IMG/VR virus record: IMGVR_UViG_3300020048_000085
DNA length: 64,000 bases
Reading direction: 5' to 3' (one strand)
Source: a virus
Made by a program: the position numbers and the translations under genes. Every line of letters begins with the position of its first letter. Position 1 is the first letter of the stretch. The notes beneath the pieces are model-generated. The model saw only the letters and a program-made list of their open reading frames with translations, was not told the DNA's origin and did no database searches. Shown in pieces: positions 10,117 through 63,023 of this stretch.

Positions 10117-10126
10117 AAATATTAAT

Positions 10127-24817: not shown

Positions 24818-25156
24818 ATGACTGGAACTACATTAAATTTATCATATATTCAATGTCCAAATTTACTAACTATACATACACCATCAGACAATTCTAAAGA
24901 TTTGTTACAAATAACCAATAATGGCGAAGTGTATTATAGATATAATGATGAGATGTTGAAAGTTAATTGTCCAGATGATGTCACAGAAGCATTAACTTAT
25001 ACTGTATTAAATTATAACAATTCTTCAATAGAAGATATCTTATTTAATAAATATTTGAATAAAATTTCAACTGGACAAATCACCAATGAACAAACTAGTA
25101 TGCTTGAAAATGTATTTAGAAAATTAAAAATTCAAAAATTAAATGATAATAGATAA
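24818..25156 (+). CDS. Hypothetical protein (112 aa)
   Basis: ORF only. Confidence 0.4.
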   Translation: MTGTTLNLSYIQCPNLLTIHTPSDNSKDLLQITNNGEVYYRYNDEMLKVNCPDDVTEALTYTVLNYNNSSIEDILFNKYLNKISTGQITNEQTSMLENVFRKLKIQKLNDNR

Positions 25157-25700
25157 TAATTTAATACAAAAATCTATTTATAAATGGGCTCCTATTATGA
25201 TTTCATTAGGACTAAAAAATAATAGATTAGCAGGTACACTTTCTTTATTTGCTGAATTATATTCATATAACACAATATATAACCATAATAATAAACTAAT
25301 TATTAATTTAAATGATAGAATTAATGCTACTTTATTACCAATAATGCTGAGAACATTAACATCTTTAAATTTAGAACTAGTCAATTTAATTATAGATAAT
25401 GATAATAAATATGAATTAAATACATATAGCATTAAATTAAAACATATTATTGATGATATTGATGATATTGATGATAGTTTTTGTGTTGATAAATTAATAA
25501 TAGATACTATAACAAATGAAATAAACGAAAAAATTAAAAAAGAAAAATCAGATAAAATGATAATTAGATATGATTTTATCAATTGTGATGTTTCAGAAAA
25601 TTATATAAATTTAACATTAAATTATCTATTGACTAGTATAAAAAAAGAAAGAAGTGATAAAATAAATAAAATAAATAAATTATTAATAACAAATAAATAA
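25143..25700 (+). CDS. Hypothetical protein (185 aa)
   Basis: ORF. It lies directly upstream of the M16 peptidase gene with a 1-nt gap. Confidence 0.4.
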   Translation: MIIDNNLIQKSIYKWAPIMISLGLKNNRLAGTLSLFAELYSYNTIYNHNNKLIINLNDRINATLLPIMLRTLTSLNLELVNLIIDNDNKYELNTYSIKLKHIIDDIDDIDDSFCVDKLIIDTITNEINEKIKKEKSDKMIIRYDFINCDVSENYINLTLNYLLTSIKKERSDKINKINKLLITNK

Positions 25701-26855
25701 ATGGTAATAAACGTAAAGAGTGAGACTGCAATGTCTGGATTTTATATTATATTTAAAGGATCAACTATGAATGAAAAACCTGGTTGGTATGGAATTAGTC
25801 ACCTATGTGAACATATTCTTTGTAAGGCTATATTTCATTTACAAGATACATATCAACAAAAAAATATAAAATGGAATGCATATACTTCGGTAGATACTGT
25901 AGTTTTTTATATGACAGGGATTGATAGACACATAAACAAATATAAAAATGATTTTTTAAATTTATTATTAGATTTTAAACCTACACAAAAACAATTGGAT
26001 AATGAAAAGAAAATTGTTTTAGAAGAGTATAAAATGAGTTTCAATTCACAAATTGAATCTCACTATTTTAATTTACAGAGAAAGATGTTAAGTTATTATA
26101 ATCCTATTGGACTCAGATCTGATATTGAAAATATAACATTACAAGATTGTAATGATTATTTAGATTTATATTTTAAGAATCCAACAAAAATAATAAATGT
26201 ATCAAAATTTAATGATTTTGAAACAGATATAAAATTCAAAGTTGAGATAGATGTTAAACCATTTGAATTTAAAATAAATGATAATTTGTATATTATAACA
26301 TCTGACGATAATACAGATGTACCTAAAGGTATGATACCATTAGAAATTATCACAGAATTTAAAAATAAAGTTAGTATAATTGATGTCTCAACTATGCTTA
26401 CAAAAGATTTTGCATATGCATCATTTGTGTGTGAGATGTTAAGTTCAGGTTTAAATTCTCCATTATATAAAGAGGTTAGAGAAAAATTAGGATTAGTTTA
26501 TTACATAAGTTGTTCATTAGATAAATTAAATGATAAATCTTGTTCAATAAGTATTATCACTAACACATCTAAAAATAATATTGAACGTGTACAACATGAG
26601 ATAAAGAATATATTACAAAACAAAGAAATATATTTAACTCAAGAAAGATTTGATATCATAAAAGATAAGCAACTCACAAAAATTGAAGAAAATGAGATTT
26701 TAAATAATAATATTTCTAAATATATGGAAAATCCTGAATGGATGATTGAAAATATTATAAACACTATAACATTAGATGATGTGTATAGAGTGGTTGATGA
26801 ATATCTAAATTGGGATAATATGTATAAATCTGTAGATATTAATGAATTTTCTTAA
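25701..26855 (+). CDS. M16-family (insulinase/pitrilysin/MPP-like) zinc metallopeptidase
   Basis: An inverted zinc-binding motif HxxEH in the typical context GISHLCEHILCK, close to the N-terminus. The size is consistent with one M16 active unit. Confidence 0.55.
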   Translation: MVINVKSETAMSGFYIIFKGSTMNEKPGWYGISHLCEHILCKAIFHLQDTYQQKNIKWNAYTSVDTVVFYMTGIDRHINKYKNDFLNLLLDFKPTQKQLDNEKKIVLEEYKMSFNSQIESHYFNLQRKMLSYYNPIGLRSDIENITLQDCNDYLDLYFKNPTKIINVSKFNDFETDIKFKVEIDVKPFEFKINDNLYIITSDDNTDVPKGMIPLEIITEFKNKVSIIDVSTMLTKDFAYASFVCEMLSSGLNSPLYKEVREKLGLVYYISCSLDKLNDKSCSISIITNTSKNNIERVQHEIKNILQNKEIYLTQERFDIIKDKQLTKIEENEILNNNISKYMENPEWMIENIINTITLDDVYRVVDEYLNWDNMYKSVDINEFS

Positions 26856-27026: not shown

Positions 27027-27323
27027 ATGGAAATAAACACAAAAACCAAGTCTTTGGAAGAAATTTTATCTGAGAATGGAATTTCTACAAACACAGAAAA
27101 AGAAAGTAAATTGATATTATGGAATGATGATGTCAACTCTTTTGAATGGGTAATAATATGTTTAATAATGTATTTAAAGTTTACACCAGAAAGAGCAGAA
27201 ACAACAGCTTATAATGTTCATCTTAAAGGAAAAGATATTATTAAAACTGGCTCAAAAGAAGATTTAGAGCCATATAAAAAATTACTAGAAGAAAGAGGAT
27301 TAAGTTTAACAATAGAAACATAA
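27027..27323 (+). CDS. clpS: ClpS, the N-degron (N-end rule) adaptor for ClpA/ClpC
   Basis: LILWNDDVNSFEWVI...AYNVHLKGK aligns with the ClpS core, including the NDD substrate-pocket residues and the conserved His. It has the size and operon position of canonical clpS-clpA. Confidence 0.8.
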   Translation: MEINTKTKSLEEILSENGISTNTEKESKLILWNDDVNSFEWVIICLIMYLKFTPERAETTAYNVHLKGKDIIKTGSKEDLEPYKKLLEERGLSLTIET

Positions 27324-27324
27324 A

Positions 27325-27555
27325 ATGAAAAAAATAATAATAAATTATATTTTATATGTTTATCACAATTATATTCAAAATGATGAATTTGATAATATAT
27401 ATAAAGAGTGGGCTAAACCTTTTATGATGGTACTTAAATATATACACAATGTATACATGTGGATATTTTGTATTATATTTTTTCCAGTTATTTTAATCTT
27501 AATGATGATTGATAGCTATATGAAAAAAAATAGAAAAAAAATAAAAAAATTATGA
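27325..27555 (+). CDS. Small hydrophobic protein between clpS and the unfoldase gene
   Basis: 76 aa with a predicted TM helix (IFCIIFFPVILILMMI). It is tightly packed with ATGA-type overlaps on both sides. Confidence 0.35.
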   Translation: MKKIIINYILYVYHNYIQNDEFDNIYKEWAKPFMMVLKYIHNVYMWIFCIIFFPVILILMMIDSYMKKNRKKIKKL

Positions 27556-30095
27556 ATTATTCAAAAGATGTAGAATTTGCGATTAAAACAAGTAAGGATA
27601 TTGCTATTAAAATTGGCTCAAATACAATTAGACCTGAGCATATTTTTTTAGCTATGATTGAGGATGAATATTCTGACGCATGTCTTATTATGAAAGAGTT
27701 AAACTTAAATGTTGACGCAATCAAACAGACTATTTATCAGTGGTCTATGGTTGAACAATCAGGTAAAGGAATAAACAATCTTAGGAAAAATGCAGCAATT
27801 CCTCTTGATATGGAAACAGAGAAAATATTAAAAAGTTCTGTTGTTTTTGCCAAATCAATGGAATCAGATGACGTAGAGATTGATCATGTTTTTTATTCAA
27901 TTTTAGATAATGAAAACAATATAGTTAATTTATTATTAAATAAATCGCCTGGTATTTTAAATAGTTTAAAACGTAGATTGAAGAATGAAGATATTGATGA
28001 TTATACAAACAACTTAAATGAAGATAGTATGGAAGAAGGTATGGAAGAAGGAGAAGTAAAAACAGATTCAAAAAATAAATCAAAAACAAAATTACTTGAT
28101 CAATTTGGTACAAATTTAACAAACTTAGCAAAAGAAGGTAAGTTAGATCCAGTGGTTGGTCGTGTAAATGAGATTAAAAGAATCTCACAAATTTTATCCA
28201 GACGTAAGAAAAATAATCCTGTTTTGATTGGTGAGCCAGGTGTTGGTAAATCAGCTATTGCTGAAGGAATTGCTCAATTAATTGCAGATGGTAAAGTACC
28301 TGAAAATTTACAAAACAAGAGAATCATCACACTTGATATGGGTTCGTTAGTTGCGGGAACTAAATATAGAGGTGAGTTTGAGCAAAGAATGAAAGGTATT
28401 GTTAAAGAAATGGAAGAGAATAGTGATATTATTCTTTTCATTGATGAGATACATACTATTATTGGCGCTGGAGCATCACAAGGATCTCTAGATGCATCTA
28501 ATATGTTAAAACCAGCTTTGGGAAAAGGTACTTTTAGATGTATTGGTGCAACAACATTAGATGAATATCGTAAATATATTGAAAAGGACCCAGCATTAGA
28601 ACGTAGATTTCAAAAAGTTATAGTTGATTCTACTACAAAATCTGAAACATTAGAAATTCTTAAAAATATAAAAGCTCAATATGAGACTCATCATAAAGTT
28701 AAATATACTGATGACGCTTTAATCGCTTGTGTAGAATTATCAGATAAATACATATCAGACAAATTTTTACCTGATAAGGCAATTGATGCACTTGATGAAG
28801 CAGGTGCTATGGTTCATGTTAATAGAACAAGTGATATTCCAGATAAATTAGTAAATCTAAATAATAAAATCAAAGAATCTACTATTTTAAAATTAGATTG
28901 TGTAAAAAATCAAAAATTTGAATTGGCTGCTGAACACAGAGACAATGAGAAACAATGGAAATTAGAAGTTGATGAAATAAGAACAAATTGGAAGCAAGAA
29001 ATATCTAATACTATATCAACTGTAACTAAAGATGATGTGGCAGCAGTTATTTCACTTATGACAAAAATTCCAATTGATAGTGTATCTACAGATGAAAATG
29101 ATAAACTTATCGGTATGCCAGAAAAAGTTAAAAAACTTGTTATTGGTCAAGATGACGCAGTAGATAAAATTGTACAATCTGTTAAAAGATCAAGAATTGG
29201 ATTAAATAGCCATAATAAGCCAGTAGGTACATTTATTTTCTTAGGACCAACAGGAGTAGGTAAAACATACTTAGCAAAAATTATGGCAAAAGAATTATTT
29301 GGTTCCGAGGATTCATTAATTAGAATAGATATGAGTGAATTTATGGAGAAATTTTCTGTATCTCGTTTAGTTGGTGCACCTCCAGGATATGTTGGATATG
29401 AAGATGGTGGAAAATTAACAGAAGCAGTTAGACGCAAACCTTATTCAATTGTTCTTTTCGATGAAATGGAAAAAGCTCATTCAGATGTTCAAAATATTTT
29501 ACTTCAAGTATTAGATGATGGTTTTTTAACTGATAGTAATGGTCGCAAAGTTGATTTTAGAAATACTATTATTATTATGACATCAAATGCTGGTTCTAGA
29601 AAAGTAAAAGATTTTGGGAATGGTATTGGATTTGGTAGTATCTCTTCAAATAATCAAGAAAAGAGAAATGATGTTATAAAAAAAGAACTCGAAAAATTAT
29701 TTAGTCCAGAGTTTTTAAATAGAATTGATGAAATTGTAAATTTCAACTCTTTAAGTAAAGAAAATATCATTTCTATTATTGATGTAGAATGTAAATATTT
29801 GATTAATAATCTTAAAGAAAAAGGTTATGATGTCACAATATCAAACTCACTTAAAGATTACTTAGTTGAAAATGGATATGATGAAAATTATGGTGCAAGA
29901 CCACTCAAGAGAGCAATACAAAAACATATTGAAGATAGACTTATAGACGCTATCATAAGTAAAGAAATTGCTGTAGGTGATACAATATCATTATTATATG
30001 ATACTGAAAGTCAATCTGTTAAAATTTCAAAATTATCACCAAACTTTTTGGTTGATAATGTATTAAAATTAAATGAAAGTACTCCTGAAGTTTAA
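27552..30095 (+). CDS. clpC: ClpA/ClpC-type Hsp100 AAA+ unfoldase (Clp_N domain, two AAA modules, IGF ClpP-docking loop)
   Basis: Clp N-domain at the N-terminus. Walker A motifs GEPGVGKSAIAEG and LGPTGVGKTYLAK. A short UVR-like linker rather than a ClpB M-domain. SNAGSRKVKDFGNGIGFGS aligns with the ClpA IGL ClpP-binding loop, which is absent from ClpB. Confidence 0.85.
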   Translation: MNYSKDVEFAIKTSKDIAIKIGSNTIRPEHIFLAMIEDEYSDACLIMKELNLNVDAIKQTIYQWSMVEQSGKGINNLRKNAAIPLDMETEKILKSSVVFAKSMESDDVEIDHVFYSILDNENNIVNLLLNKSPGILNSLKRRLKNEDIDDYTNNLNEDSMEEGMEEGEVKTDSKNKSKTKLLDQFGTNLTNLAKEGKLDPVVGRVNEIKRISQILSRRKKNNPVLIGEPGVGKSAIAEGIAQLIADGKVPENLQNKRIITLDMGSLVAGTKYRGEFEQRMKGIVKEMEENSDIILFIDEIHTIIGAGASQGSLDASNMLKPALGKGTFRCIGATTLDEYRKYIEKDPALERRFQKVIVDSTTKSETLEILKNIKAQYETHHKVKYTDDALIACVELSDKYISDKFLPDKAIDALDEAGAMVHVNRTSDIPDKLVNLNNKIKESTILKLDCVKNQKFELAAEHRDNEKQWKLEVDEIRTNWKQEISNTISTVTKDDVAAVISLMTKIPIDSVSTDENDKLIGMPEKVKKLVIGQDDAVDKIVQSVKRSRIGLNSHNKPVGTFIFLGPTGVGKTYLAKIMAKELFGSEDSLIRIDMSEFMEKFSVSRLVGAPPGYVGYEDGGKLTEAVRRKPYSIVLFDEMEKAHSDVQNILLQVLDDGFLTDSNGRKVDFRNTIIIMTSNAGSRKVKDFGNGIGFGSISSNNQEKRNDVIKKELEKLFSPEFLNRIDEIVNFNSLSKENIISIIDVECKYLINNLKEKGYDVTISNSLKDYLVENGYDENYGARPLKRAIQKHIEDRLIDAIISKEIAVGDTISLLYDTESQSVKISKLSPNFLVDNVLKLNESTPEV

Positions 30096-30685: not shown

Positions 30686-31300
30686 TTAATTATTTTTTTT
30701 AATTATTTTATTAAGTTTATCTACTCTTTTTTCTTTTATTGATAATGTATTATTCTCATATAAAATATCATCAAATTCAAAATTTACTTTCAAATTACTA
30801 AAATCACAAGTTCCATTATTAAATTTAAAATTATTTTTAATTTTTGTGAAATGAAAATTTGTGTAGCAAAGTGTTAATATATCAGATATTTTTATTTTTA
30901 CTGAAAATTTAGTTTTATTATTTATTAATTGCATAATATATTCATATGGTTGAATTCTATTACCAATAAAATCACAAGAAAAAGAAAAATAATCATCTTC
31001 AATATTAGTCAATGAATCAACTAATAACTTAGTTTTTTCTGTATCCAATAAAAAATCTACATTATATGGTAATATTGATAATTTATTCGGAGTAGTCCAA
31101 ACATAACTATTATTAGTTGTGTTAGTATATCCATATAGTGGATTATTAAAAATTGTGTTATTATCTAAAATATTATGATATACTCCTGTGCTATCTAATG
31201 ATGTATCTATTGCCATATCTGATGATATTGTTAGTGATGATTTTCCTATTGCTGGTGACCATGATGATTCAGATGTTGTACTTTGGTTTGTTGTTGACAT
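30686..31300 (-). CDS. Hypothetical protein (204 aa)
   Basis: ORF with a 2-nt gap to the downstream gene. Confidence 0.45.
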   Translation of the reverse strand: MSTTNQSTTSESSWSPAIGKSSLTISSDMAIDTSLDSTGVYHNILDNNTIFNNPLYGYTNTTNNSYVWTTPNKLSILPYNVDFLLDTEKTKLLVDSLTNIEDDYFSFSCDFIGNRIQPYEYIMQLINNKTKFSVKIKISDILTLCYTNFHFTKIKNNFKFNNGTCDFSNLKVNFEFDDILYENNTLSIKEKRVDKLNKIIKKNN

Positions 31301-37154: not shown

Positions 37155-37397
37155 GTGATGATTATAGATAAAAAATATGGTGACTGGAATTTATTAAATC
37201 CCACTGAAAACGATGATTTTGCATATTACTTATATTTGATAGAAACTAAAAACAAATATAATAATAATATACTTTTTTTATCTCAACAAGAGTTTACATT
37301 TATGTTTTATGATTATGATTATACACATAATTCTTATTATATAAAAGCCACAAAAGAAATAAGAAAAATAAAATTGAAAAAATTGAATTTAAAATAA
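37155..37397 (+). CDS. Small protein (MMIIDKKYGDWNLLNPTENDDFAYYLYL...) paralogous to 53758..54078, with an RKIKLKKLN tail
   Basis: Shared N-terminal IIDKxYGxWxLxNP...DxAYYL and a C-terminal K-x-K-L-x-K-L-N tail. Confidence 0.45.
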   Translation: MMIIDKKYGDWNLLNPTENDDFAYYLYLIETKNKYNNNILFLSQQEFTFMFYDYDYTHNSYYIKATKEIRKIKLKKLNLK

Positions 37398-41714: not shown

Positions 41715-42281
41715 ATGATAGAATTTTTTAACTCTCTAGATATGTTTAGTAAAACATTATTTTTTATGGCTTTTGGAACAGGTGTATTATTTATTATCCA
41801 AAATTTAATTGTGTTTTTAGGAATGGATCATGATAGTGATATTGATACTGATTCAGATATTGATTCAGAACACAACTCTGGTAAATCATTTGGTTGGTTT
41901 TCATTTAAAAACGTTGTTAATTTTATTCTAATTTTTTCATTAGTAGGATTAATAACAGTAGGTTCTGGAATATCAAAACCAGTATCATTATTAATAGCAT
42001 CAATAGCAGGTATTATATTTGTTTATGTGATGATATTATTATTCAATCTAATGAAAAAACTCTCTCAAGATAATACACCAACATTAACTGATTTAGTTGG
42101 AGAAACTGGTGTAGTATATTTAAAAATACCTGCAGTAGGAAATGGAAAAATAAAAATAATGCATGGCGGAGCAATTCAAATATTAGATGCGTGTTCAGAA
42201 GGTATAGTAATCACAAGAGATTCAAATGTTAAGGTGTCTAAAATTGTAGGACATACTATAATAGTAGAAGAAATAAAATAA
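41715..42281 (+). CDS. NfeD-like membrane protein (short form, YuaF/YqiJ-like) partnered with flotillin
   Basis: N-terminal transmembrane helices plus a C-terminal beta-rich OB-like segment (GVVYLKIPAVGNGKIKIMHGGAIQILDA). It sits immediately upstream of an SPFH protein, as in bacterial nfeD-floT operons. Confidence 0.55.
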   Translation: MIEFFNSLDMFSKTLFFMAFGTGVLFIIQNLIVFLGMDHDSDIDTDSDIDSEHNSGKSFGWFSFKNVVNFILIFSLVGLITVGSGISKPVSLLIASIAGIIFVYVMILLFNLMKKLSQDNTPTLTDLVGETGVVYLKIPAVGNGKIKIMHGGAIQILDACSEGIVITRDSNVKVSKIVGHTIIVEEIK

Positions 42282-42328
42282 TCAATAAAAATAATTTATA
42301 AATAAAAACAATTTAATTTAAAAAAAAC

Positions 42329-43831
42329 ATGAGTAGTACATTAACGTTAATTTTAATCGTAGTAGTTGCGATTTCAGTATTTTCAATTATTGTTGCCTTA
42401 GTAAAAAGGTACAAACGTTGCCCATCAGATAAACTTTTAGTTATTTATGGTAAAACAGGCAAAACTGATGGTAAAGCATCAGCAGCAAAAGTAATTCATG
42501 GTGGTGGTGCATTTGTTTGGCCAGTCATTCAGGATTATACTTTCTTAGATTTGAAACCAATTTCAATTGATATTAATTTGAAAGGTGCATTATCTAAACA
42601 AAACATACGTATTGATGTTCCATCAGTATTTACAGTTGCAATATCAGGTGGAGATGGAATACGTGAGAATGCTGCTGAGAAATTACTTGGACTTCAAAAA
42701 CAAGAAATAGCACAATTAGCACAAGATATTATTCTTGGTCAAATGCGTTTAGTTATCGCAATGATGAACATTGAAGAAATAAATGCTGACCGTGACAAAT
42801 TTCTTGAAAATATTCAAAAAAATCTTGAAGATGAGCTTCAAAAAATTGGTCTAAGACTTATTAATGTAAATATCACAGATATTAGTGATGAATCAAACTA
42901 CATTAAATCATTAGGACAGAATGCAGCATCAGGAGCTATTAATGAAGCTGCAATTCAAGTTGCACAGAAGAATAAAGATGGTGCTATTGGTGTTGCAACA
43001 GCAGATAGAGAAAAACGTGTGAGTGTTGCTGCTGCGCAAGCAGAAGCACAAATTGGTGAAGCTGATGCAAGTCAAAAAATGAGAGCAGAAACTGCTGCAT
43101 TAAATGCAAAGGCTATTGCTGGTGAAAATAGTGCATTTGTTGAAATAGCAAAAACTAATGCTAGTAGACAAATTGCAGAAGCTGATGCAAAGAAAGACTC
43201 AGTTACTGCTGAAAATGTAAAAGCAGCAGAAGCAAAACAAGCATCATATGATGCTGAAAAATTAGCAGAAACAAAACGTGCTGAAAGAGATAAAGCAACT
43301 CAATATGCAAATATTGTTGTACCTGCTGAAATAGCAAAAGAAAAACTTATTGTTGAAGCTGCTGCAAATGCAGAATCAACTAGAGTAATTGCAAAAGGTG
43401 ATGCTGATGCAATGTTTGCTAAAATGGAAGCAGAAGCAAGAGGTATAAATGAAATACTAACAAAGCAAGCTGAAGGTTTTGCAAAGTTAGTTCAAGCTGC
43501 TGGTGGAGATGCTGCAAAAGCTGTTCAATTGATGATTGCTGATAAATTACCAGAACTTACAAGAATTCAAGTTGATGCTATCAAAAATATCAAATTTGAT
43601 AAGATTACAGTTTGGGATAATGGTGGAAATGGCTCAGGAAATTCTACTGCAAATTTTGCAAAAAATTTATTTTCAATGATTCCACCACTTACTGACATTT
43701 TCAAACAAGTTGGTGCTGAATTACCAGCATTTATGCAAGGTGCAGGAGAACAAAAAACAAATGAACTTGAAGCAGAAAACTCTGTCACTAAAGTAATAAA
43801 AGACGAAACAACTGATAATAGTAAATCATAA
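42329..43831 (+). CDS. Flotillin-like SPFH/band-7 protein (FloT/YqiK type) with Ala/Glu-rich coiled-coil repeats
   Basis: N-terminal TM anchor and an SPFH core (VIHGGGAFVWPVIQDYTFLDLKP...). There is a long EA-repeat region (AAQAEAQIGEADASQKMRAETAALNAKA...). GC is visibly higher than in the surrounding sequence. Confidence 0.75.
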   Translation: MSSTLTLILIVVVAISVFSIIVALVKRYKRCPSDKLLVIYGKTGKTDGKASAAKVIHGGGAFVWPVIQDYTFLDLKPISIDINLKGALSKQNIRIDVPSVFTVAISGGDGIRENAAEKLLGLQKQEIAQLAQDIILGQMRLVIAMMNIEEINADRDKFLENIQKNLEDELQKIGLRLINVNITDISDESNYIKSLGQNAASGAINEAAIQVAQKNKDGAIGVATADREKRVSVAAAQAEAQIGEADASQKMRAETAALNAKAIAGENSAFVEIAKTNASRQIAEADAKKDSVTAENVKAAEAKQASYDAEKLAETKRAERDKATQYANIVVPAEIAKEKLIVEAAANAESTRVIAKGDADAMFAKMEAEARGINEILTKQAEGFAKLVQAAGGDAAKAVQLMIADKLPELTRIQVDAIKNIKFDKITVWDNGGNGSGNSTANFAKNLFSMIPPLTDIFKQVGAELPAFMQGAGEQKTNELEAENSVTKVIKDETTDNSKS

Positions 43832-43839
43832 AATTAAAT

Positions 43840-44102: not shown

Positions 44103-44135
44103 AAAAAAAAATCCTGCTTTCGCAGGATTTTTTTA
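44103..44135. terminator. Intrinsic terminator (A-run, stem atcctgc / gcaggat, T-run)
   Basis: Perfect 7-bp GC-containing stem with tetraloop tttc, flanked by an A8 run and a T7 run. Confidence 0.6.
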
Positions 44136-44339
44136 TACCCATTCCTCTTCTTCGAGATATTCTGGATTATATATTAAACCAAGTTCATTAATTTTTTTAT
44201 AAATATCATTTTTGTTTCTTGTTTCGAAAAGTTCATTCATAGTCTCTAATTCACATTCAATGTTTTTTAGTAATAAAACATCTTTTGTTTCTGCATCCCA
44301 AATCAATTTCCATACACTACCATTTTCAAGTTTTTTCAT
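44133..44339 (-). CDS. Hypothetical small acidic protein (68 aa)
   Basis: ORF only. Confidence 0.35.
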   Translation of the reverse strand: MKKLENGSVWKLIWDAETKDVLLLKNIECELETMNELFETRNKNDIYKKINELGLIYNPEYLEEEEWV

Positions 44340-47979: not shown

Positions 47980-48708
47980 ATGTCAAAAATTAAAACAAAT
48001 AAAGAATATACTATTAAAATAGAACATCCAACATTAGGTATTTATTACTATTCATATTGTGGATTTAATGATAAATTTAGACCATTTGTATTTACAAAGA
48101 ATTTATCAAAAGTACAAACATGGAAAACAACAAAATTTGTTGAGAAACATATAGAGTCAATTCTATCAAAAATAAATCAAAAGTCTGGTAAAATTTATTT
48201 ATCACTTGGAACTGAACCAGATGAAAATTTATCCAGAGAATTAAAAGAAAATTCTATTATATCAAGAAAAATGAATTATTATATAATAGAAAAAACAGAT
48301 AATATTAGATCAAAGATAGGTTTGATAACAGCAGAAGAAAATATAAAAGAATTAGATGTTACTCTAATACAAGATTCTGATATGATTGCAAATGAATATA
48401 TTAATATTAAAAATAATTTTTATATTAACAAAATAAATAAAATTTCTAATGATAATATAAACGTAAGCGAAATTATAACAAATATTGATAATACATTACT
48501 ATCTATGAATAGTTTTGATTGTATACAAAAAAAATTTTATGATAAAGTAAATAAATATAATAAAGATATATTTTGTTATAAAGAATCTTGTAAAATTATT
48601 AAAGAAGAAAAAAACTATAATGGATTATATTTAGAAATATATGATGCATCTAATAAATTTAGAAAATTAAAGATACAAACATTAAGACAACTACAATCAA
48701 ATGAATAA
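47980..48708 (+). CDS. Hypothetical protein (242 aa)
   Basis: ORF only. Confidence 0.45.
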   Translation: MSKIKTNKEYTIKIEHPTLGIYYYSYCGFNDKFRPFVFTKNLSKVQTWKTTKFVEKHIESILSKINQKSGKIYLSLGTEPDENLSRELKENSIISRKMNYYIIEKTDNIRSKIGLITAEENIKELDVTLIQDSDMIANEYINIKNNFYINKINKISNDNINVSEIITNIDNTLLSMNSFDCIQKKFYDKVNKYNKDIFCYKESCKIIKEEKNYNGLYLEIYDASNKFRKLKIQTLRQLQSNE

Positions 48709-49419: not shown

Positions 49420-49725
49420 ATGAAAACAATATATTTGACTATTAATAATAATTTAGAATTTAGTTTTGATTTAGAATCAGAGAAAGCTTTTTATAGACAC
49501 AGAAGAGAAATTGAAGAAATGTGTGAAACATATTTATTTGAGTTTAATTCAGAGCAAACTATGACAGAAATAAAAAATAAAATATTACAAATATTAAGTA
49601 CTGATATACAAAATATTAGAAAAAATAAACTCAAAAAAATTGATGAGTCATGTGGAATAAAAAGTGAACAAAAAATGAGATGGTTTGATATAAAATTTGA
49701 AATTACATCAAATAAATTAAATTAA
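49420..49725 (+). CDS. Hypothetical protein (101 aa)
   Basis: ORF only. Confidence 0.4.
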   Translation: MKTIYLTINNNLEFSFDLESEKAFYRHRREIEEMCETYLFEFNSEQTMTEIKNKILQILSTDIQNIRKNKLKKIDESCGIKSEQKMRWFDIKFEITSNKLN

Positions 49726-49735: not shown

Positions 49736-50185
49736 ATGTCGTTACCTCATTTTACTAAACAAAATTATAATCAAATGTATTCAAATACAATTCATCAAAG
49801 TCAATATGAAGTTATGTTTGAAAATGAATATTTATCGGAGTCTTGCTATGCCATTGAAAATAATATCATGAAATTTAATTTGAATATAATATATGGTAAT
49901 TTACAACCATTTGAATATATTAATTATATGATTATAAATAATAAAAATATAAGATATTTAAAAATAAACAATTATAACAAAGAAGGTGATGTTGTATATA
50001 GTATTTTTCTGAAAAACTTTAAATTTAGTAAAACTAATATATTAGATTTTAATTGGAAAGATAATGATATTAAGGAATTATATGTCAATTTCGAATATGA
50101 AAATATTAAATTGATAACAGCAAAAAATATTAATTCTTTTTTAAGAAAGATTAAGTTGGAGTACTTAAAAGAAAAAGAGTCATAA
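49736..50185 (+). CDS. Hypothetical protein (149 aa)
   Basis: ORF followed by a hairpin terminator. Confidence 0.4.
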   Translation: MSLPHFTKQNYNQMYSNTIHQSQYEVMFENEYLSESCYAIENNIMKFNLNIIYGNLQPFEYINYMIINNKNIRYLKINNYNKEGDVVYSIFLKNFKFSKTNILDFNWKDNDIKELYVNFEYENIKLITAKNINSFLRKIKLEYLKEKES

Positions 50186-51780: not shown

Positions 51781-51831
51781 ATATTATTAATTTTTATTAC
51801 TACTATATATTATTATTTCAAATCTTTTTTG

Positions 51832-51839
51832 TATCTTTG
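51832..51839 (+). promoter_or_regulatory. TATCTTTG -7-like promoter element heading the long plus-strand gene run 51868-61787
   Basis: TATCTTTGT lies 28 nt upstream of the ATG at 51868. Confidence 0.35.
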
Positions 51840-51867
51840 TCTCTTAAATATATTAAATAGTAAAAAT

Positions 51868-52380
51868 ATGGATAATTTTGAGACATTTTTTAAATTCTGG
51901 ATAAATAAGAAAGTAAGAAAACAACTTAATGTGATAGATGAAATTTCAAAAGAAACTGGAATTGATGCTAAGAATTGGTTTATTAATGATTTTTTAGTTA
52001 GAAATATTAATAACCATGCTGGTGATGAATTTTTAGATGTTTTACTTGAAAATTTTCTATTAGAATTGTCAAATAAATTTGAGTATCTATTTAAGGATTA
52101 TATAGAACCAGAAAGGTATAATATTTACAAAGAACCAATCTTTGATATTAATATTAGTCTTGACTATGATTATAAAAACAATTGTATTATTATTGATGAA
52201 TATACTACAGATGATGACAAAGAACATATCATAAAAATAATAAAATCTTTGACTTTGGAACAAAAATTAGAATTGATGAATAATAAAATTTTTTCATATG
52301 TTATAAATAAAACAAAATTAGAAGTTTTTTCAATTAAAGATATAAGGGCTTTAAAATTAAAAAGTCTAAATGGATTATAA
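51868..52380 (+). CDS. Hypothetical protein; the start is moved to MDNFETFF (the track ORF begins at 51829 inside the promoter)
   Basis: It is the first ATG downstream of the TATCTTTGT element. Confidence 0.45.
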   Translation: MDNFETFFKFWINKKVRKQLNVIDEISKETGIDAKNWFINDFLVRNINNHAGDEFLDVLLENFLLELSNKFEYLFKDYIEPERYNIYKEPIFDINISLDYDYKNNCIIIDEYTTDDDKEHIIKIIKSLTLEQKLELMNNKIFSYVINKTKLEVFSIKDIRALKLKSLNGL

Positions 52381-52591
52381 TTTCAAATATAAAGTTGGAG
52401 ATGTTATAGATAAAAATCATTTTATATGTACTATTAAACATTTAGATTATCATTATTATGATATAGAATATTATGATTCGAATAATATTAAAAAATATAC
52501 ATTTGTTGATGCAATATATTTAGACGCAGCATCAAAATTAGAGTTAAAATATAGTAGAAAAGAAAAATTGAAAATAATAAATGAGTCATAA
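52370..52591 (+). CDS. Small protein with a KYKVGD small-barrel motif and an ELKYSRKEKLK tail
   Basis: It is paralogous to 52581..52814 and has an overlapping start/stop. Confidence 0.45.
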   Translation: MDYNFKYKVGDVIDKNHFICTIKHLDYHYYDIEYYDSNNIKKYTFVDAIYLDAASKLELKYSRKEKLKIINES

Positions 52592-52814
52592 GTGTAAATA
52601 TAAAGCAGGTGATATTGTAGTTTATTTTGGAGTATTAATTAATATTAAATTGGTTGATTTTCCTAAATATGGTATTGAATATATTAATCACATTAATACA
52701 CAGTATTCTGCAATTGATTCAAATTTTTTAGATTTAAATTCAGAATTAGAGTTAAAATATAGTAGAAAAGAAAAAATAAAAAAATTAAATGAAACTTCAA
52801 CAATGGTTAAATAG
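52581..52814 (+). CDS. Paralog of 52370..52591 (KYKAGDIV ... ELKYSRKEKIKKLN)
   Basis: It shares the N-terminal G-D-hydrophobic motif and the C-terminal tail. Confidence 0.45.
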   Translation: MSHKCKYKAGDIVVYFGVLINIKLVDFPKYGIEYINHINTQYSAIDSNFLDLNSELELKYSRKEKIKKLNETSTMVK

Positions 52815-53364
52815 TGCATATTTTTTAGAAAAAAATCAATTTGAAAAACGTGAATTATTAAAAGGTAGTATACTCACTGATAATTATTGTAATATCGGTA
52901 ATAATGTTACATGTTTTGATACTGAACCATATTGTTCTAAGATGAATGAGAGATTTTATTCTAAATCATCAAATAAATCTTGTGATTTAACTATTGGTAA
53001 ATCATATGAAATATTAGATCATAGAAAAGGAAAAATAAAAATATCTAATGATAGTAATAAGATAGTGTATGTCACAATTCATAGATTTATGTATTCTATC
53101 AAATATGAAAGAAAAGAAAAATTAATTAATATAAATAACTCAGAAGAAAATATTTTAAATGATACAACAAATAAAAAATTAATTTGTGTGTTGTGTGGTC
53201 AAGAATGGGGTAACATAAATAAATTCACAAATACTTGTGAAAATGAAAATTGTAGAGGATTTTGTACATGGGGATACGAGCCAATGAAACCTGAAAGTTT
53301 TGATATTAACGAAAATAATTTTTGGATTTTAAAAACAATACCTAAAAATATCAATGATTTATAA
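52789..53364 (+). CDS. Cys-rich hypothetical protein (191 aa) with an internal YERKEKLININ motif
   Basis: CVLCGQEW...CENENCRGFC cysteine cluster. Confidence 0.4.
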   Translation: MKLQQWLNSAYFLEKNQFEKRELLKGSILTDNYCNIGNNVTCFDTEPYCSKMNERFYSKSSNKSCDLTIGKSYEILDHRKGKIKISNDSNKIVYVTIHRFMYSIKYERKEKLININNSEENILNDTTNKKLICVLCGQEWGNINKFTNTCENENCRGFCTWGYEPMKPESFDINENNFWILKTIPKNINDL

Positions 53365-53378
53365 TAATTTTTAATAAT

Positions 53379-53768
53379 ATGCTAGATAATATTTCAACTA
53401 AAAAAATAAAAGAACATGTAATTAATACTGGTAAATTAATTGATGTCAAAAGTGGTAGATGTAGATATAACTACAAATGCCATATGAATGCTGTAAGTGA
53501 TGCATTAAGTAGTAAACAGAATAGTATTGGGATGTGTGTTTGTATAAATGATAATAATTGTTTTATTCATTTTGTCAACATATCAAAAAATAATACATAT
53601 ATTGATAATACACTAGGACAATGGTCTATTAATTATGATTATTATTTAATTGATATTATAGACAAAAAAGATTTTTTTAGTGTAAATGAAATATTTACTA
53701 AATATAGAAAGAAATTACACCAAAAATTACCACTATTATTAAGAATGGTAAATACTGTTGAGTTTTAA
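53379..53768 (+). CDS. Hypothetical protein (129 aa)
   Basis: ORF only. Confidence 0.4.
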   Translation: MLDNISTKKIKEHVINTGKLIDVKSGRCRYNYKCHMNAVSDALSSKQNSIGMCVCINDNNCFIHFVNISKNNTYIDNTLGQWSINYDYYLIDIIDKKDFFSVNEIFTKYRKKLHQKLPLLLRMVNTVEF

Positions 53769-54078
53769 TATTATGATTATAGATAAAACATATGGAATTT
53801 GGGATTTAATAAATCCTCCAATAATTGATGATATTGCATATTATTTATGTATGAAAGATTATATTTTTTATTGTAATCATTGTATTTATTTAAATGATTT
53901 TAATGTTATAACAAAATATGATCCACCATGTCAAAGTTGGGTTAAAGTTGTAAGATGTTATAAATGGTGTGATAACATTGTTAATTATTATGAAAAAGCA
54001 ACACACATAGTAGAGAAAAAAATTAGAAAAGAAAAATTAACAAAATTATATAATGAAGAAAAAAGTGGTTGTTTTTAG
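53758..54078 (+). CDS. Small protein paralogous to 37155..37397 (IIDKTYGIWDLINP...DIAYYL ... RKEKLTKLYN)
   Basis: Shared N-terminal and tail motifs. Confidence 0.45.
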   Translation: MSFNIMIIDKTYGIWDLINPPIIDDIAYYLCMKDYIFYCNHCIYLNDFNVITKYDPPCQSWVKVVRCYKWCDNIVNYYEKATHIVEKKIRKEKLTKLYNEEKSGCF

Positions 54079-54718
54079 TGGAGCCGGATTAGATGCTGAA
54101 AGTGGAGTTTCAACTTTCAGAACAGATAACGGATTGTGGGAAAATTATGATGTAAAAGATGTTGCAAATATTGATGGATGGAGAAATAATAGACAATTAG
54201 TATTAAACTTTTATAATGAAAGACATAAACAATTAGATGCAGTAGAACCGAATTCTGCACATTATTATCTTGCTGAATTAGAAAAAAAACATGATGTTTT
54301 TCACATAACTCAAAATATTACAGATTTACTTGAACGAGCTGGTTGTACAAATGTGTTACACCTCCATGGAGAATTAACAAAAATGAGAGGATTTAATAGT
54401 GGAACAATTTATGATTGGGATAAAGACTTTGATATTCAAACTCATAGTGTAGATGAAAATGGTGATACACTTCGTCCACATGTAGTTTGGTTTGGAGAAG
54501 ATGTTCCAAACATGGTAAAAGCTGAGAAATTAGTTAGAGATGCTGATGTGTTAATTATTATTGGCACGTCTTTATTAGTTTATCCTGCAGCAAACTTAGT
54601 ATATAAAGTTAAATTTAGAACTCCTATATATTATATTGATCCATCAAATTCAGATATTGATGATGTTATACACATCAAAGATGTTGCAACAGATGGTGTT
54701 AAAAAATTAAATTTATAA
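54053..54718 (+). CDS. Sir2-family NAD-dependent deacylase / ADP-ribosyltransferase (sirtuin), apparently lacking the zinc-binding cysteines
   Basis: GAGLDAESGVSTFR, TQNITDLLERAG and LHLHGEL are present in the canonical order. No CxxC pairs are visible in the small-domain region. Confidence 0.75.
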   Translation: MKKKVVVFSGAGLDAESGVSTFRTDNGLWENYDVKDVANIDGWRNNRQLVLNFYNERHKQLDAVEPNSAHYYLAELEKKHDVFHITQNITDLLERAGCTNVLHLHGELTKMRGFNSGTIYDWDKDFDIQTHSVDENGDTLRPHVVWFGEDVPNMVKAEKLVRDADVLIIIGTSLLVYPAANLVYKVKFRTPIYYIDPSNSDIDDVIHIKDVATDGVKKLNL

Positions 54719-54722
54719 AAAT

Positions 54723-55142
54723 ATGATAGATTTAGAAAAATTAAAAGAATTATTAAATGATCCTGAAACTCAGTTGAAATGGCAACAAAAAATTCAACTT
54801 GAAGAGAATCAAAAGAATAATAATATTGAAAGAGTCAAAAAAATGTTTAATGATCAAAAAACATTTGATGATTTGATGTTTAAAATATTAAGTAAAAATG
54901 GAGATGAACGTAAAGATATGTGTTATAAGAAAGGATATATGCCATATCCATCTACCTTATTATCTGTTATTTTTGATTTAGCTGAACAAGAAGGTGTAGA
55001 GATAGTTGAGTCAATCGATGATTTGACTGAACATTTTCCTAGTGCTATTTATAATTATAACGATTGGACATTTTCTTTGACTTTTGGACAAGGTACAAGT
55101 AGTAGCATATACTATAATAAAAAATTAATGTATAGTGATTGA
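54723..55142 (+). CDS. Hypothetical protein (139 aa)
   Basis: ORF only. Confidence 0.4.
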   Translation: MIDLEKLKELLNDPETQLKWQQKIQLEENQKNNNIERVKKMFNDQKTFDDLMFKILSKNGDERKDMCYKKGYMPYPSTLLSVIFDLAEQEGVEIVESIDDLTEHFPSAIYNYNDWTFSLTFGQGTSSSIYYNKKLMYSD

Positions 55143-55381
55143 AAACAATAAAATCAAGATATAGTTTAACAACAATTAATTCTAATAATTTTGGAACGTT
55201 ACAGATAAGTGGAACATCACAATATCCAATGTTAACAACTTTAAGTGGTGGTAACCTTACTCAAGGTTATGTTTTTGTTCCATATATAATATCTAATGTA
55301 TTAGAAGATATAATAATGAAAAGAAAATTATTAAGAGAAGAAAGAATACAGAAACTCAATAAAGTAGCAAAAAATGAATAA
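55139..55381 (+). CDS. Small protein with an RKLLREERIQKLNK tail
   Basis: ORF with an ATGA-type overlap. Confidence 0.4.
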   Translation: MKTIKSRYSLTTINSNNFGTLQISGTSQYPMLTTLSGGNLTQGYVFVPYIISNVLEDIIMKRKLLREERIQKLNKVAKNE

Positions 55382-55595
55382 TTCTAAAATAATAGAAGAA
55401 GAAATTTATAAACGAGCGTTTGTAATATTTGTTACATTTATTTCTGTTGAAACTAATATTAGTTATGAAAAAACACTTGATATGATTAGTTATGATGTTT
55501 TTATTTCTGATACGAATAAAATTTGTAATTTTTTAGAATTAGCTAAAAAACAATTAAGAAAAGAAAAACTCACTAAAATCAATAGATATGTGTGA
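55374..55595 (+). CDS. Small protein with a KKQLRKEKLTKIN tail
   Basis: ORF with the tail motif. Confidence 0.4.
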   Translation: MNNSKIIEEEIYKRAFVIFVTFISVETNISYEKTLDMISYDVFISDTNKICNFLELAKKQLRKEKLTKINRYV

Positions 55596-55866
55596 ATTTA
55601 AAATTGGAGATGATGTGATATTTTTTGATAATGATGATCATGATTATGACAATATTTTAATTGTTGGACAAGCATATAAAATAACTCGTGTTTATAGTGG
55701 AAAAATAACAAAAATACAACATATTACTGTCGAAACTCAACTAATATATCCAAAATATACTAGTGGATTTTCAAGTAGATTTTTATCTAAAAAAGATTAC
55801 AATATAAAACAACGAGCACAGAAACTCAATAAACTCACATCAAATGAACAAGTTCAAAAAATATGA
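55588..55866 (+). CDS. Small protein (FKIGDDVIFF ... KKDYNIKQRAQKLNK)
   Basis: It is paralogous to the next gene. Confidence 0.4.
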   Translation: MCEFKIGDDVIFFDNDDHDYDNILIVGQAYKITRVYSGKITKIQHITVETQLIYPKYTSGFSSRFLSKKDYNIKQRAQKLNKLTSNEQVQKI

Positions 55867-56083
55867 ACATGTAGTTTGTATTGAAAATATGTTTTTCAGT
55901 TATAGCTTATGTATAGGTAAAGTATATGTTGTTGTTAAAATCTTATTACCAGATTTTATGATAGTTGAAGATATTAATAAAACTATTGTAACCGTTTCTG
56001 TTCCAATCGAATACTTTATGAGTCAAAAAGATTTCAACATAAAACAAAGAAAAGAAAAACTAATTAAAATAAATTTATTATAA
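55844..56083 (+). CDS. Paralog of 55588..55866 (... QKDFNIKQRKEKLIKIN)
   Basis: Shared tail and an overlapping start. Confidence 0.4.
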   Translation: MNKFKKYEHVVCIENMFFSYSLCIGKVYVVVKILLPDFMIVEDINKTIVTVSVPIEYFMSQKDFNIKQRKEKLIKINLL

Positions 56084-63020: not shown

Positions 63021-63023
63021 ATT

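What the first reader, a model, noticed from the sequence alone, without database searches (positions are those of the whole stretch)
52370..56083. Cluster of small proteins sharing a basic C-terminal tail R-K-E-K-L-x-K-L-N, related to the KKFNL tail
At least ten small ORFs end with the same tail: LKYSRKEKLKIIN, LKYSRKEKIKKLN, YERKEKLININ, RKEKLTKLYN, REERIQKLNK, RKEKLTKINRY, KQRAQKLNK, KQRKEKLIKIN, RKIKLKKLN (37155..37397) and RKIKIKKLNK (2622..2951). The ORFs include two paralog pairs. The pattern K-x-x-L-x-K-[LF]-N is the same one that ends the array genes (KKDLNKFNL). A C-terminal tag common to dozens of otherwise unrelated small proteins could have three explanations. It could be a degron for the phage-encoded ClpA/C unfoldase, as ssrA-like tags are. 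It could be a packaging or secretion signal. Or it could be a by-product of an A-rich, SD-independent initiation region for the overlapping downstream gene.
Basis: partly seen in the sequence, partly recalled or inferred. Interest (0 to 1): 0.7.

Follow-up and report, generated by a model that had tools for sequence, protein, structure and literature searches.

The report
Shared C-terminal helix on phage proteins
About one fifth of the genes in this stretch of an uncultivated, very AT-rich huge phage end in the same short basic helix (R-K-x-K-L-x-K-L), which selection keeps at the protein level on unrelated proteins, so it looks like a common docking label whose partner is still unknown.

Summary
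A position-specific score built from the tails finds 17-19 tail-bearing genes among 95 in the window, against 0.2-0.3 expected. Related contigs with 22-25% GC carry it on 30-43% of genes in their small-gene islands. The conserved core is [hydrophobic]-R-K-x-K-[L/I]-x-K-[L/I].

Selection acts on the protein:
- R1 and K4 are almost invariant.
- Leu and Ile use up to seven different codons.
- Synonymous sites are no more conserved than elsewhere.
- The motif persists without a downstream gene, and inside longer proteins.

It is portable. It sits on an SH3-like barrel, on an alpha/beta plus coiled-coil protein, and as a ~20-residue add-on to Tad3-like proteins (83 of 120 homologues have it, 37 do not).

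Residue 9 (N/Y/H = xAT) plus G forms the next gene's ATG in 15 of 42 cases. Relatives with the same SD-less, A-rich starts, ClpC and M16 peptidase have no tails. The KKFNL array tail is unrelated.

Best reading: a shared docking helix for one common partner. That step is inferred, not shown.

The parts
52345..52371 (+). Tail core RALKLKSLN of the 183-aa ORF 51829..52380. This is the first gene of the cluster. The next ATG (52370) is formed by AAT+G.
   Evidence: orthologues in L003 and L007 keep IRALKLK[CQ]LNEI
52556..52582 (+). Tail core RKEKLKIIN of ORF 52370..52591 (73 aa, SH3-like barrel family). The next ATG is at 52581.
52764..52790 (+). Tail core RKEKIKKLN of ORF 52581..52814 (77 aa, paralogue of 52370). 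The next ATG is at 52789.
53110..53136 (+). Internal copy RKEKLININ in ORF 52789..53364 (191 aa). The architecture is N-terminal region, then barrel plus tail, then a Cys-rich C-terminal domain.
   Evidence: the same architecture is kept in L003 2676..3254, L007 7723..8283 and P0006
54025..54051 (+). Tail core RKEKLTKLY of ORF 53758..54078 (106 aa, Cys-rich family, paralogue of 37155). The Sir2 ATG follows at 54053.
55334..55360 (+). Tail core REERIQKLN of ORF 55139..55381 (80 aa).
   Evidence: orthologues read KEERIEKLN and REKRIEKLN
55557..55583 (+). Tail core RKEKLTKIN of ORF 55374..55595 (73 aa).
55813..55839 (+). Tail core RAQKLNKLT of ORF 55588..55866 (92 aa, barrel family). Arg is encoded by CGA and both Leu by CTC.
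56048..56074 (+). Tail core RKEKLIKIN of ORF 55844..56083 (79 aa, barrel family). In the AlphaFold model it lies inside helix 61-78.
37362..37388 (+). Tail core RKIKLKKLN of ORF 37155..37397 (80 aa). There is no downstream gene within 90 nt.
2910..2936 (+). Tail core RKIKIKKLN of ORF 2622..2951 (109 aa), followed by a terminator-like hairpin and not by a gene.
2597..2623 (+). Tail core RKKKIKQIY of ORF 2381..2635 (84 aa). TAT+G forms the ATG of 2622.
25118..25144 (+). Tail core RKLKIQKLN of ORF 24818..25156 (112 aa). AAT+G forms the ATG of 25143.
   Evidence: orthologues in L016 and L017 read FRRLKLEKIN and FRKMKLKKID
25650..25676 (+). Weaker tail RSDKINKIN of ORF 25143..25700 (185 aa).
30701..30727 (-). 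Weak tail RVDKLNKII of ORF 30686..31300 (204 aa, minus strand).
   Evidence: the L017 orthologue reads IRTDKLKKII
48661..48687 (+). Tail core RKLKIQTLR of ORF 47980..48708 (242 aa, alpha/beta plus coiled-coil protein), followed by a terminator-like hairpin.
49618..49644 (+). Tail-like RKNKLKKID in ORF 49420..49725 (101 aa), 26 residues before the C-terminus.
50144..50170 (+). Tail core RKIKLEYLK of ORF 49736..50185 (149 aa).

Best explanation
The tail is a portable protein module. It is a C-terminal alpha-helix of about 13-20 residues with the conserved face [L/I]-x-x-[hydrophobic]-R-K-x-K-[L/I]-x-K-[L/I].

It is shared by many otherwise unrelated small proteins of one lineage of very AT-rich (22-25% GC) Mahaphage-related huge phages. 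These proteins are probably early or accessory proteins.

The module spread by tandem duplication and by recombination at gene ends. It is now kept by purifying selection on its amino acids.

Because the same Arg, Lys and Leu positions are kept on different folds, its job must be independent of the scaffold. The most likely job is to dock each carrier onto one common partner (a protein or nucleic acid of the phage or host), as a shared address or tether motif does.

The module's DNA is also the A-rich, SD-less leader of the next gene. The codon after the core (xAT) plus G often forms that gene's ATG, which explains the terminal N/Y/H and the junk residues after it.

Shown here: the motif, its enrichment, protein-level selection, portability, the lineage limit, and the interlock with the next start codon.
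Inferred: that it docks to a common partner. The identity of that partner is unknown.
For: Enrichment: 13 hits against 0.07 expected, and 19 against 0.29. In independent loci that were not used to build the PSSM, 16/44 and 17/40 genes carry it, against 0.16-0.18 expected.

Protein-level selection:
- R1 is present in 42/42 tails and K4 in 40/42.
- The hydrophobic positions 5 and 8 (Leu or Ile) use up to seven codons: TTA, TTG, CTA, CTT and CTC for Leu, ATA, ATT and ATC for Ile. Arg is encoded by AGA, AGG and CGA. The proportions are close to genome-wide usage.
- In 29 orthologue pairs, tail amino-acid identity is 66% against 52% for the rest of the protein (p = 1e-5). Codon identity at identical residues is 75.6% against 71.4% (p = 0.28).
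- The tail is kept where no gene follows (2622, 37155, 47980) and where it is internal (52789 family).

Portability:
- An SH3-like barrel plus helix, pLDDT 90.5, with the tail inside helix 61-78.
- A 242-aa alpha/beta plus coiled-coil protein with F-R-x-L-K-L-x-x-L invariant across 11 homologues of 37-57% identity. The terminal helix has lower pLDDT, 71 falling to 56.
- Tad3-like proteins: 83 of 120 homologues carry an 18-29-residue extension containing the tail, and 37 end 2-9 residues after the domain without it.

DNA-level exchange between tails: the rare Leu codon CTC is 5/23 in tail cores against 18/1580 elsewhere (p = 1e-5). Tails of the unrelated genes 55139 and 55588 share the 15-mer CAGAAACTCAATAAA.

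Not produced by start context alone: relatives with SD-less A-rich starts and 20/43 to 31/56 coupled genes have 0 tails.

Interlock with the next gene: the next ATG is at offset -1 in 15/42 tails, and most other offsets fall in the same relative frame.
Against: - No partner has been identified, and no binding has been shown.
- In the barrel family the helix is modelled with high confidence (pLDDT 91-96). It may simply be a structural cap packed on the barrel.
- Tail genes are significantly more often coupled to a downstream gene, so an RNA-level or translation-level role is not excluded.
- The synonymous-site test has little power in a genome where 80-90% of codons for K, R, N and E are a single codon.
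- All sequences come from uncultivated phages, so expression timing and location are unknown.
- The PSSM was trained on four of the loci in which it was then counted. L011, L016, L017, L020, L021 and the Tad3 set are the independent checks.
Confidence: 0.5

Rival explanations
1. Pure by-product of translation initiation. The last codons of an upstream gene must be A-rich and G-poor because they are the SD-less leader of the overlapping downstream gene, and this alone yields K/N/I/L-rich tails.
For: - No SD; positions -5 to -23 are A-rich and G-depleted.
- 34/42 tail genes are coupled, against 73/145 of the others, p = 4e-4.
- The next ATG is at offset -1 in 15/42 tails.
- Position 9 is N/Y/H (xAT) and is poorly conserved between orthologues.
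- ATA is somewhat preferred over ATT at the Ile positions.
- The window encodes an S1-domain protein, and huge phages with S1 proteins rarely have SD sequences (PMC7162821).
Against: - R1 and K4 are invariant, and hydrophobic residues are kept through non-synonymous-looking codon changes such as TTA, CTC and ATA.
- There is no excess synonymous conservation.
- The motif is kept in 8/42 genes without a downstream gene and in internal copies.
- Other coupled genes in the same window end in quite different A-rich peptides.
- Relatives with the same kind of start region have no tails.
- The tail is an add-on to Tad3-like proteins.
Confidence: 0.1
2. C-terminal degron. The tail marks early proteins for timed unfolding and degradation by the phage ClpC-like ATPase (with ClpS) and host ClpP.
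For: - ClpS (27027..27323) and a ClpA/C-type double-AAA ATPase (27552..30095) with a GIGF ClpP-docking-type loop lie in the window.
- The tag is near the C-terminus.
- Basic C-terminal recognition signals for Clp unfoldases are known, for example the MuA C-terminus (own knowledge).
Against: - The motif is a confidently predicted helix, not a free disordered end.
- 0-10 variable residues follow it, and internal copies are conserved.
- ClpC homologues of 58% identity are present in Mahaphage genomes that lack tails.
- ClpS is an N-degron adaptor (own knowledge).
Confidence: 0.1
3. Packaging or injection signal. The basic tail binds DNA or a capsid component, so that tail-bearing proteins, including anti-defence proteins, are loaded into the head and delivered with the genome. 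This would resemble the T4 internal proteins.
For: - The tail adds +3 to +6 net charge to mostly acidic bodies.
- One carrier family is Tad3-like. Tad3 is a Thoeris inhibitor that binds ThsB (PMC13402655), and such a protein would profit from early delivery.
- An apparently active M16 peptidase (HLCEH) lies next to tail genes. M16 enzymes act on basic amphipathic peptides (own knowledge).
Against: - There is no virion or proteomic evidence.
- The carriers sit among replication and metabolism genes (Sir2, deformylase, ligase), not next to recognisable structural genes.
- M16 homologues occur in tail-less relatives.
- 30-40% of small genes would be a very large cargo list.
Confidence: 0.12
4. 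No common function. One ancient family of small proteins diverged beyond recognition, and the C-terminal helix is just its best-conserved structural element.
For: - Several carriers are demonstrable paralogues.
- The barrel family, 17 clusters in 1.8 billion representatives, has the tail as its only invariant part.
- In the barrel model the helix is part of a compact fold.
Against: - The carriers have unrelated predicted folds.
- Tad3-like proteins exist with and without the tail.
- A structural cap on different scaffolds would not need the same Arg and Lys.
Confidence: 0.13
5. Nascent-peptide effect. The basic tail, while still in the ribosome exit tunnel, slows termination and so promotes re-initiation at the overlapping start of the next gene.
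For: The association with coupled downstream genes and the fixed -1 spacing in 15/42 tails.
Against: - The distance from motif to stop codon varies from 0 to 10 codons.
- Internal copies and terminal, uncoupled copies are conserved.
- There is no precedent in SD-less bacteria that I know of.
Confidence: 0.05

Closest known systems
Adaptor tether motifs and shared docking tails: the SspB C-terminal ClpX-binding peptide, and the poxvirus ankyrin PRANC/F-box tail
   Same: Many proteins with different target-binding bodies end in one short conserved C-terminal motif with mixed basic and hydrophobic character. In those systems the motif plugs each protein into a common machine. The resemblance is recalled from my own knowledge and was not tested here.
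   Different: No partner is known here. There is no sequence similarity. The motif is a helix that is sometimes followed by extra residues or by another domain.
T4 capsid targeting sequence of the internal proteins
   Same: A short terminal peptide shared by otherwise unrelated, fast-evolving phage proteins that are encoded in plastic gene arrays (own knowledge).
   Different: The T4 signal is N-terminal and is removed by the prohead protease. The signal here is C-terminal, no cleavage site is known, and virion association is unknown.
C-terminal degrons (ssrA tag, MuA C-terminus)
   Same: The location near the C-terminus, and the presence of Clp-type unfoldase genes in the same genome.
   Different: Degrons are disordered and are read at the free end. 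This motif is helical, is followed by variable residues, and is also conserved at internal positions.
SD-less, A-rich translation initiation of Bacteroidota (PMC6847099) and of huge phages that carry S1 proteins (PMC7162821)
   Same: Window starts lack an SD and have A-rich, G-poor leaders. The tail DNA is such a leader for the next gene.
   Different: This explains the composition and residue 9, but not the conserved R-K-x-K-L-x-x-L core.
Small SH3-like beta-barrels capped by a C-terminal helix (chromo-barrel, PWWP, KOW/Tudor types; Pfam PF24203 Phage_ProQ_C_like)
   Different: Only 1 of 21 members touches PF24203, and that match is below threshold (21.3 against 27 bits). The tail also occurs on non-barrel proteins.
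Tad3 (type I Thoeris inhibitor, Pfam PF25185)
   Same: One carrier family matches PF25185 at 105 bits.
   Different: The tail is an extra ~20 residues after the end of the family. It is absent from 37 of 120 homologues, including a prophage copy in a 39% GC bacterial contig.

Membership tests
Pfam PF24203 Phage_ProQ_C_like | Score at or above the curated gathering threshold (27 bits) | tested here: not met
   The best score is 21.3 bits (E = 4.5e-4), for ORF 55588 only. 1 of 21 family members matches at all.
SH3-like small beta-barrel fold | Five-stranded barrel with structural similarity to solved SH3, KOW or Tudor domains | tested here: met
C-terminal degron (ssrA or MuA type) | Recognition element at the free, unstructured C-terminal end | tested here: not met
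   0-10 variable residues follow the core. Copies lie 26 and 75 residues from the end. The motif is predicted to be helical.
C-terminal degron (ssrA or MuA type) | Unfoldase-dependent instability of tagged proteins | not testable with these tools
   This needs reporter stability assays. ClpC-like and ClpS genes are present, but they are also present in tail-less relatives.
T4-type capsid targeting sequence | N-terminal position and removal by the prohead protease | tested here: not met
   The motif is C-terminal in 40 or more of the copies. No cleavage data exist.
T4-type capsid targeting sequence | Presence of the carriers in virions | not testable with these tools
   This needs virion proteomics.
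SD-less A-rich initiation region overlapping the upstream ORF | No SD, A enrichment and G depletion upstream of starts | tested here: met
   0% of starts have AGGA/GGAG/GAGG. A is 63% and G is 4% at positions -20 to -5.
SD-less A-rich initiation region overlapping the upstream ORF | Constraint acting on the nucleotides (excess synonymous conservation, A-biased codon choice) | tested here: not met
   Codon identity is 75.6% against 71.4% (p = 0.28). Leu codon mix is as in the genome or more varied. The power of the test is low.
Pfam PF25185 Tad3 (for the L006 carrier only) | Score at or above the gathering threshold (27 bits) | tested here: met
   105.4 bits, residues 74-190 of 279. Anti-Thoeris activity was not tested.
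PeSL-like recombination cassettes of T4-type phages | Intergenic promoter plus stem-loop between shuffled genes | tested here: not met
   The tails are coding sequence in frame 0 of their genes. The promoter-like TTATATATA motif lies elsewhere, in intergenic DNA. Stem-loops were not examined.

The most novel reading that the evidence does not exclude
This huge-phage lineage may carry a large library, possibly hundreds per 500-700 kb genome, of small target-binding proteins. At least one family in it is an anti-defence type (Tad3-like).

Each protein would be fitted with the same C-terminal docking helix. Diverse host targets would then all be plugged into one common phage or host machine, for example the phage ClpC-like unfoldase with ClpP, or a shared localisation or packaging hub.

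This would be a phage counterpart of the F-box/PRANC or SspB-type adaptor logic.
Probability: 0.2. Interest if true: 0.9.

Novelty: new variant of a known kind. Interest (0 to 1): 0.66.

Why it matters
If the tail is a common docking label, it defines a functional class that covers a fifth or more of the genes in sampled regions of some of the largest known phage genomes. Almost all of those genes are now annotated as "hypothetical".

It would give a simple sequence handle for listing that class. It would also give a peptide bait for finding the hub it binds.

It would link a known anti-defence domain (Tad3-like) to the rest of the class.

Finally, it is a clear worked example of dual coding. 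One 27-nt stretch encodes a selected peptide and also serves as the SD-less leader and start of the next gene. That matters for gene calling and for reading selection in AT-rich phage genomes.

Tried and rejected
- Word-index homology search with ORF 55588 found only itself.
- Pfam and PHROGs scans of the ten cluster proteins gave no hit above threshold, except phrog_6596 for the tail-less ORF 53379.
- A profile search of PDB sequences gave only non-significant eL21-type barrel hits and nothing for the tail.
- Literature searches for a described shared C-terminal motif in huge phages found nothing relevant.
- KKFNL relationship: rejected by PSSM scores.
- Sir2 KKLNL as a tail copy: rejected.
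- Dedicated link to ClpC or to the M16 peptidase by co-occurrence: rejected, because both are present in tail-less Mahaphage genomes.
- The tail as a promoter: the promoter-like TTATATATA motif is intergenic and is absent from tails.

Full report
**Source and context**

The window has 22% GC. Its ClpC-like protein is 58% identical to genes in the 634-642 kb "uncultured phage" genomes LR745206 and LR756502. Those genomes belong to the Mahaphage clade, whose largest members are predicted to infect Bacteroidetes (PMC7162821).

Exact copies of window proteins lie on an 83-kb metagenomic contig. Homologues lie on contigs of up to 711 kb.

The window also encodes the following:
- ClpS;
- a ClpA/C-type ATPase with a GIGF loop;
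- an M16 peptidase with an intact HLCEH motif;
- an S1-domain protein and a NusG-like protein;
- a fused SbcCD-like protein;
- Sir2, peptide deformylase, thymidine kinase and an NAD-dependent ligase.

Starts have no Shine-Dalgarno sequence. Positions -5 to -23 are 60-75% A and 1-4% G. This fits the SD-less initiation described for Bacteroidetes (PMC6847099) and for huge phages that carry S1 proteins (PMC7162821).

**The observation**

- A loose pattern gives 13 hits in 95 genes against 0.07 in shuffles, and 12 of them fall in the last 25 residues.
- A 13-column PSSM gives 19 hits at >=10 bits against 0.29 expected.
- At >=13 bits it gives 17 proteins of 73-242 aa.
- AGAAAAGAAAAA occurs six times, always in frame 0 of a gene, and only at 52.5-56.1 kb.

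Corrections to the finding:
- One listed "tail" is internal: ORF 52789..53364, with 75 residues after the motif.
- There are three paralogue pairs, not two.
- The cluster begins at 51829.
- The KKFNL ends of the array genes score -5 to -21 bits on the tail PSSM and are a different motif.
- The Sir2 ending KKLNL belongs to the Sir2 fold.

**Relatives**

Syntenic contigs of the same lineage (22-25% GC) carry the motif on many genes:

| Locus | Genes with tail / genes called | Threshold |
|---|---|---|
| L003 | 12/30 | >=13 bits |
| L006 | 10/23 | >=13 bits |
| L007 | 13/39 | >=13 bits |
| L011 | 13/42 | >=13 bits |
| L020 (531-kb contig, not used for training) | 16/44 | >=10 bits |
| L021 (not used for training) | 17/40 | >=10 bits |

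The expected number in L020 and L021 is 0.16-0.18.

Copy number varies between relatives. L003 has four tandem MKYKVGD... genes where the window has two.

More distant relatives with 31-32% GC have none:
- L004/L005 (Sir2 50% identical): 0/43;
- three stretches of LR756502 and LR756501, 140 kb in total: 0/56, 0/59 and 0/67.

**Protein signal or DNA signal**

In 42 aligned tails, R1 is invariant and K4 is present in 40/42. Position 5 is L or I and uses seven codons. Position 8 is L or I and uses eight codons. Arg appears as AGA, AGG and CGA. The proportions are close to genome-wide usage.

In 29 orthologue pairs:
- tail amino-acid identity is 66% against 52% for the rest of the protein (p = 1e-5);
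- codon identity at identical residues is 75.6% against 71.4% (p = 0.28);
- per position, R1 is kept in 28/29 pairs, K4 in 29/29, K2 in 21/29, L5 in 23/29 and L8 in 21/29, but position 9 in only 10/28.

The motif survives where no gene follows (2622, 37155, 47980). It also survives as an interdomain helix in the 52789 family in three phages.

So the core is selected as a peptide. The synonymous-site test has low power in so biased a genome.

**The link with the next gene**

Tail genes are followed by a co-directional gene within -40 to +25 nt in 34/42 cases, against 73/145 for other genes (p = 4e-4). In 15/42 the next ATG is the last two bases of codon 9 plus a G.

Codon 9 is AAT, TAT or CAT in those cases, which explains N/Y/H there. 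The endings -E-I-stop and -E-S-stop are the out-of-frame reading of the next gene's MKYK... start.

It does not generate the core. LR756502 and L004 also have SD-less, A-enriched starts and 31/56 and 20/43 coupled genes, yet no tails.

**Portability**

1. The 52370/52581/55588/55844/52789 family.
   - It has only 17 clusters among 1.8 billion representatives.
   - It models as a five-stranded SH3-like barrel plus helix 61-78, pLDDT 90.5.
   - R1 and K4 are its only invariant residues.
2. The 242-aa family of ORF 47980.
   - It models as an alpha/beta domain with a long coiled-coil hairpin, then strand 216-222 and the tail helix 226-240.
   - The pLDDT of the tail helix falls to 71, then 56.
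   - F-R-x-L-K-L-x-x-L is invariant in 11 homologues of 37-57% identity.
3. A 279-aa protein in L006.
   - It matches Pfam Tad3 at 105 bits. Tad3 is a Thoeris inhibitor that binds ThsB (PMC13402655).
   - Of 120 homologues, 83 carry 18-29 extra residues after the conserved V[WF]xYY end, for example ...HQETPSYLRLKKLKQIN.
   - The other 37 stop 2-9 residues after it with no tail. These include a prophage copy in a 39% GC bacterial contig and marine sequences.

The tail is therefore an add-on that can sit on unrelated bodies.

Signs that tails move or are copied as DNA:
- The rare codon CTC is 5/23 among tail Leu codons, against 18/1580 elsewhere (p = 1e-5).
- Two unrelated neighbouring genes share the 15-mer CAGAAACTCAATAAA in their tails.
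- Fusions occur: P0009 has two barrel-plus-tail units in one chain, and the 52789 family has barrel plus tail followed by a Cys-rich domain.

**What it most likely does**

On a helical wheel the conserved residues fall on one face spanning about 140 degrees: hydrophobic -3 and 0, R1, K4, L/I5 and L/I8. K2, E3, x6 and K7 lie on the other side and vary more (this follows).

Arg is never replaced by Lys at position 1, and Lys is rarely replaced by Arg at position 4. That argues for stereospecific recognition rather than plain charge.

The same face kept on different folds points to a job that does not depend on the scaffold. I take docking to one common partner as the best reading. The carrier bodies are mildly acidic (median pI 5.5), and the tail adds +3 to +6 charge.

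This step is inference. In the barrel family the helix may also be a structural cap.

**Rivals**

- Degron for ClpC/ClpS: the genes are present. However, the motif is helical, is not at the free end, and is also internal. ClpC is present in tail-less relatives.
- Packaging signal: nothing tests it. The M16 peptidase with HxxEH could in principle process basic helices, but it too is present in tail-less Mahaphages.
- A single diverged family: contradicted by the different folds and by the Tad3 split.
- Nascent-peptide pausing: contradicted by the variable distance to the stop codon and by uncoupled copies.

**Novelty**

I found no described family or paper for this motif.

The closest known logic is a shared terminal address or tether peptide on diverse proteins: the T4 capsid targeting sequence, the SspB ClpX-binding tail, and PRANC/F-box tails. 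These resemblances come from my own knowledge and were not tested.

I rate it a new variant of a known kind. It is notable for its prevalence: 18-43% of genes in sampled regions of a lineage with genomes of up to ~0.7 Mb.

Noticed in passing
window 13701-19248, also 3313-5809 and 50653-51780: Array genes share an N-terminus M-[KI]-x-[IFL]-x-x-F-E and a C-terminus [KN]-K-F-N-[LI]. KFNL is kept whether the stop is TGA (overlapping the next ATG) or TAA (no overlap), so this end is also a peptide-level motif. It is distinct from the RKxKL tail. The N-terminal part recalls the T4 capsid targeting sequence; that resemblance comes from my own knowledge and was not tested.
   Followed up: partly
L019 (LR756501.1 120000-169000): 10077..10472, 25583..25888, 25892..26128, 28399..28782, 41903..43489: A tail-less 735-kb Mahaphage has a different shared C-terminal motif, DPYGEE[ED]W, on at least five unrelated proteins of 78-528 aa. 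Window ORF 44133..44339(-) ends EYLEEEEWV. Shared C-terminal peptides may be a general habit of this clade.
   Followed up: partly
window 25701-26855: M16 (insulinase/pitrilysin-type) peptidase with an intact HLCEH zinc motif. Homologues of 37-44% identity occur in all five 634-735 kb Mahaphage records.
   Followed up: partly
window 27027-27323 and 27552-30095: A phage-encoded ClpS next to a ClpA/C-type double-AAA ATPase with a GIGF loop of the ClpP-docking type. No ClpP is in the window.
   Followed up: partly
window 37478-38638 and 38765-39337(-): An S1-domain protein (386 aa) and a NusG-like protein. This fits a phage that adjusts SD-less translation and transcription elongation.
   Followed up: no
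window intergenic sites, e.g. 152, 5851, 11358, 12135, 19254, 20515, 31350, 36408, 39844, 44490, 46816, 49372, 50637, 58839, 63197: TTATATATA, often within T-run/TATATATA/A-run, occurs 21 times. 20 of these are in the 7% of the window that is non-coding, typically 15-30 nt upstream of a start. It is a likely phage promoter element.
   Followed up: partly
window 52789-53364; L006 1864..2355 (P0009): Gene fusions involving the tail. In 52789 the order is N-terminal region, barrel plus tail, then a Cys-rich CxxC...C...C domain, and this is conserved in three phages. A relative has a protein with two barrel-plus-tail units in tandem.
   Followed up: partly
window 19303-20789 and 61809-63481: A duplicated module: a GIY-YIG-containing paralogue pair (351 and 327 aa, 37% identical), each next to a divergent pair of 52-63-aa genes (KISITLNKDL...SKYIE..I) that are also paralogous to each other.
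   Followed up: no
window 20793-24542: A single 1249-aa ORF that fuses an Mre11/SbcD-like phosphoesterase with a Rad50/SbcC-like ATPase.
   Followed up: no
window 2952-2980, 15766-15793, 30096-30144, 43832-43866, 45770-45799, 48709-48736: Convergent gene pairs share a single G+C-containing hairpin between them, which looks like a bidirectional intrinsic terminator, e.g. AAAAAGCTCAGATTTAACTCTGAGCTTTTT.
   Followed up: no
L021 13950..15188(-): A TnpB/Cas12f-like gene (OrfB_IS605 plus the Cas12f1-like TNB domain) sits inside a tail-rich small-gene island of a related phage contig.
   Followed up: no
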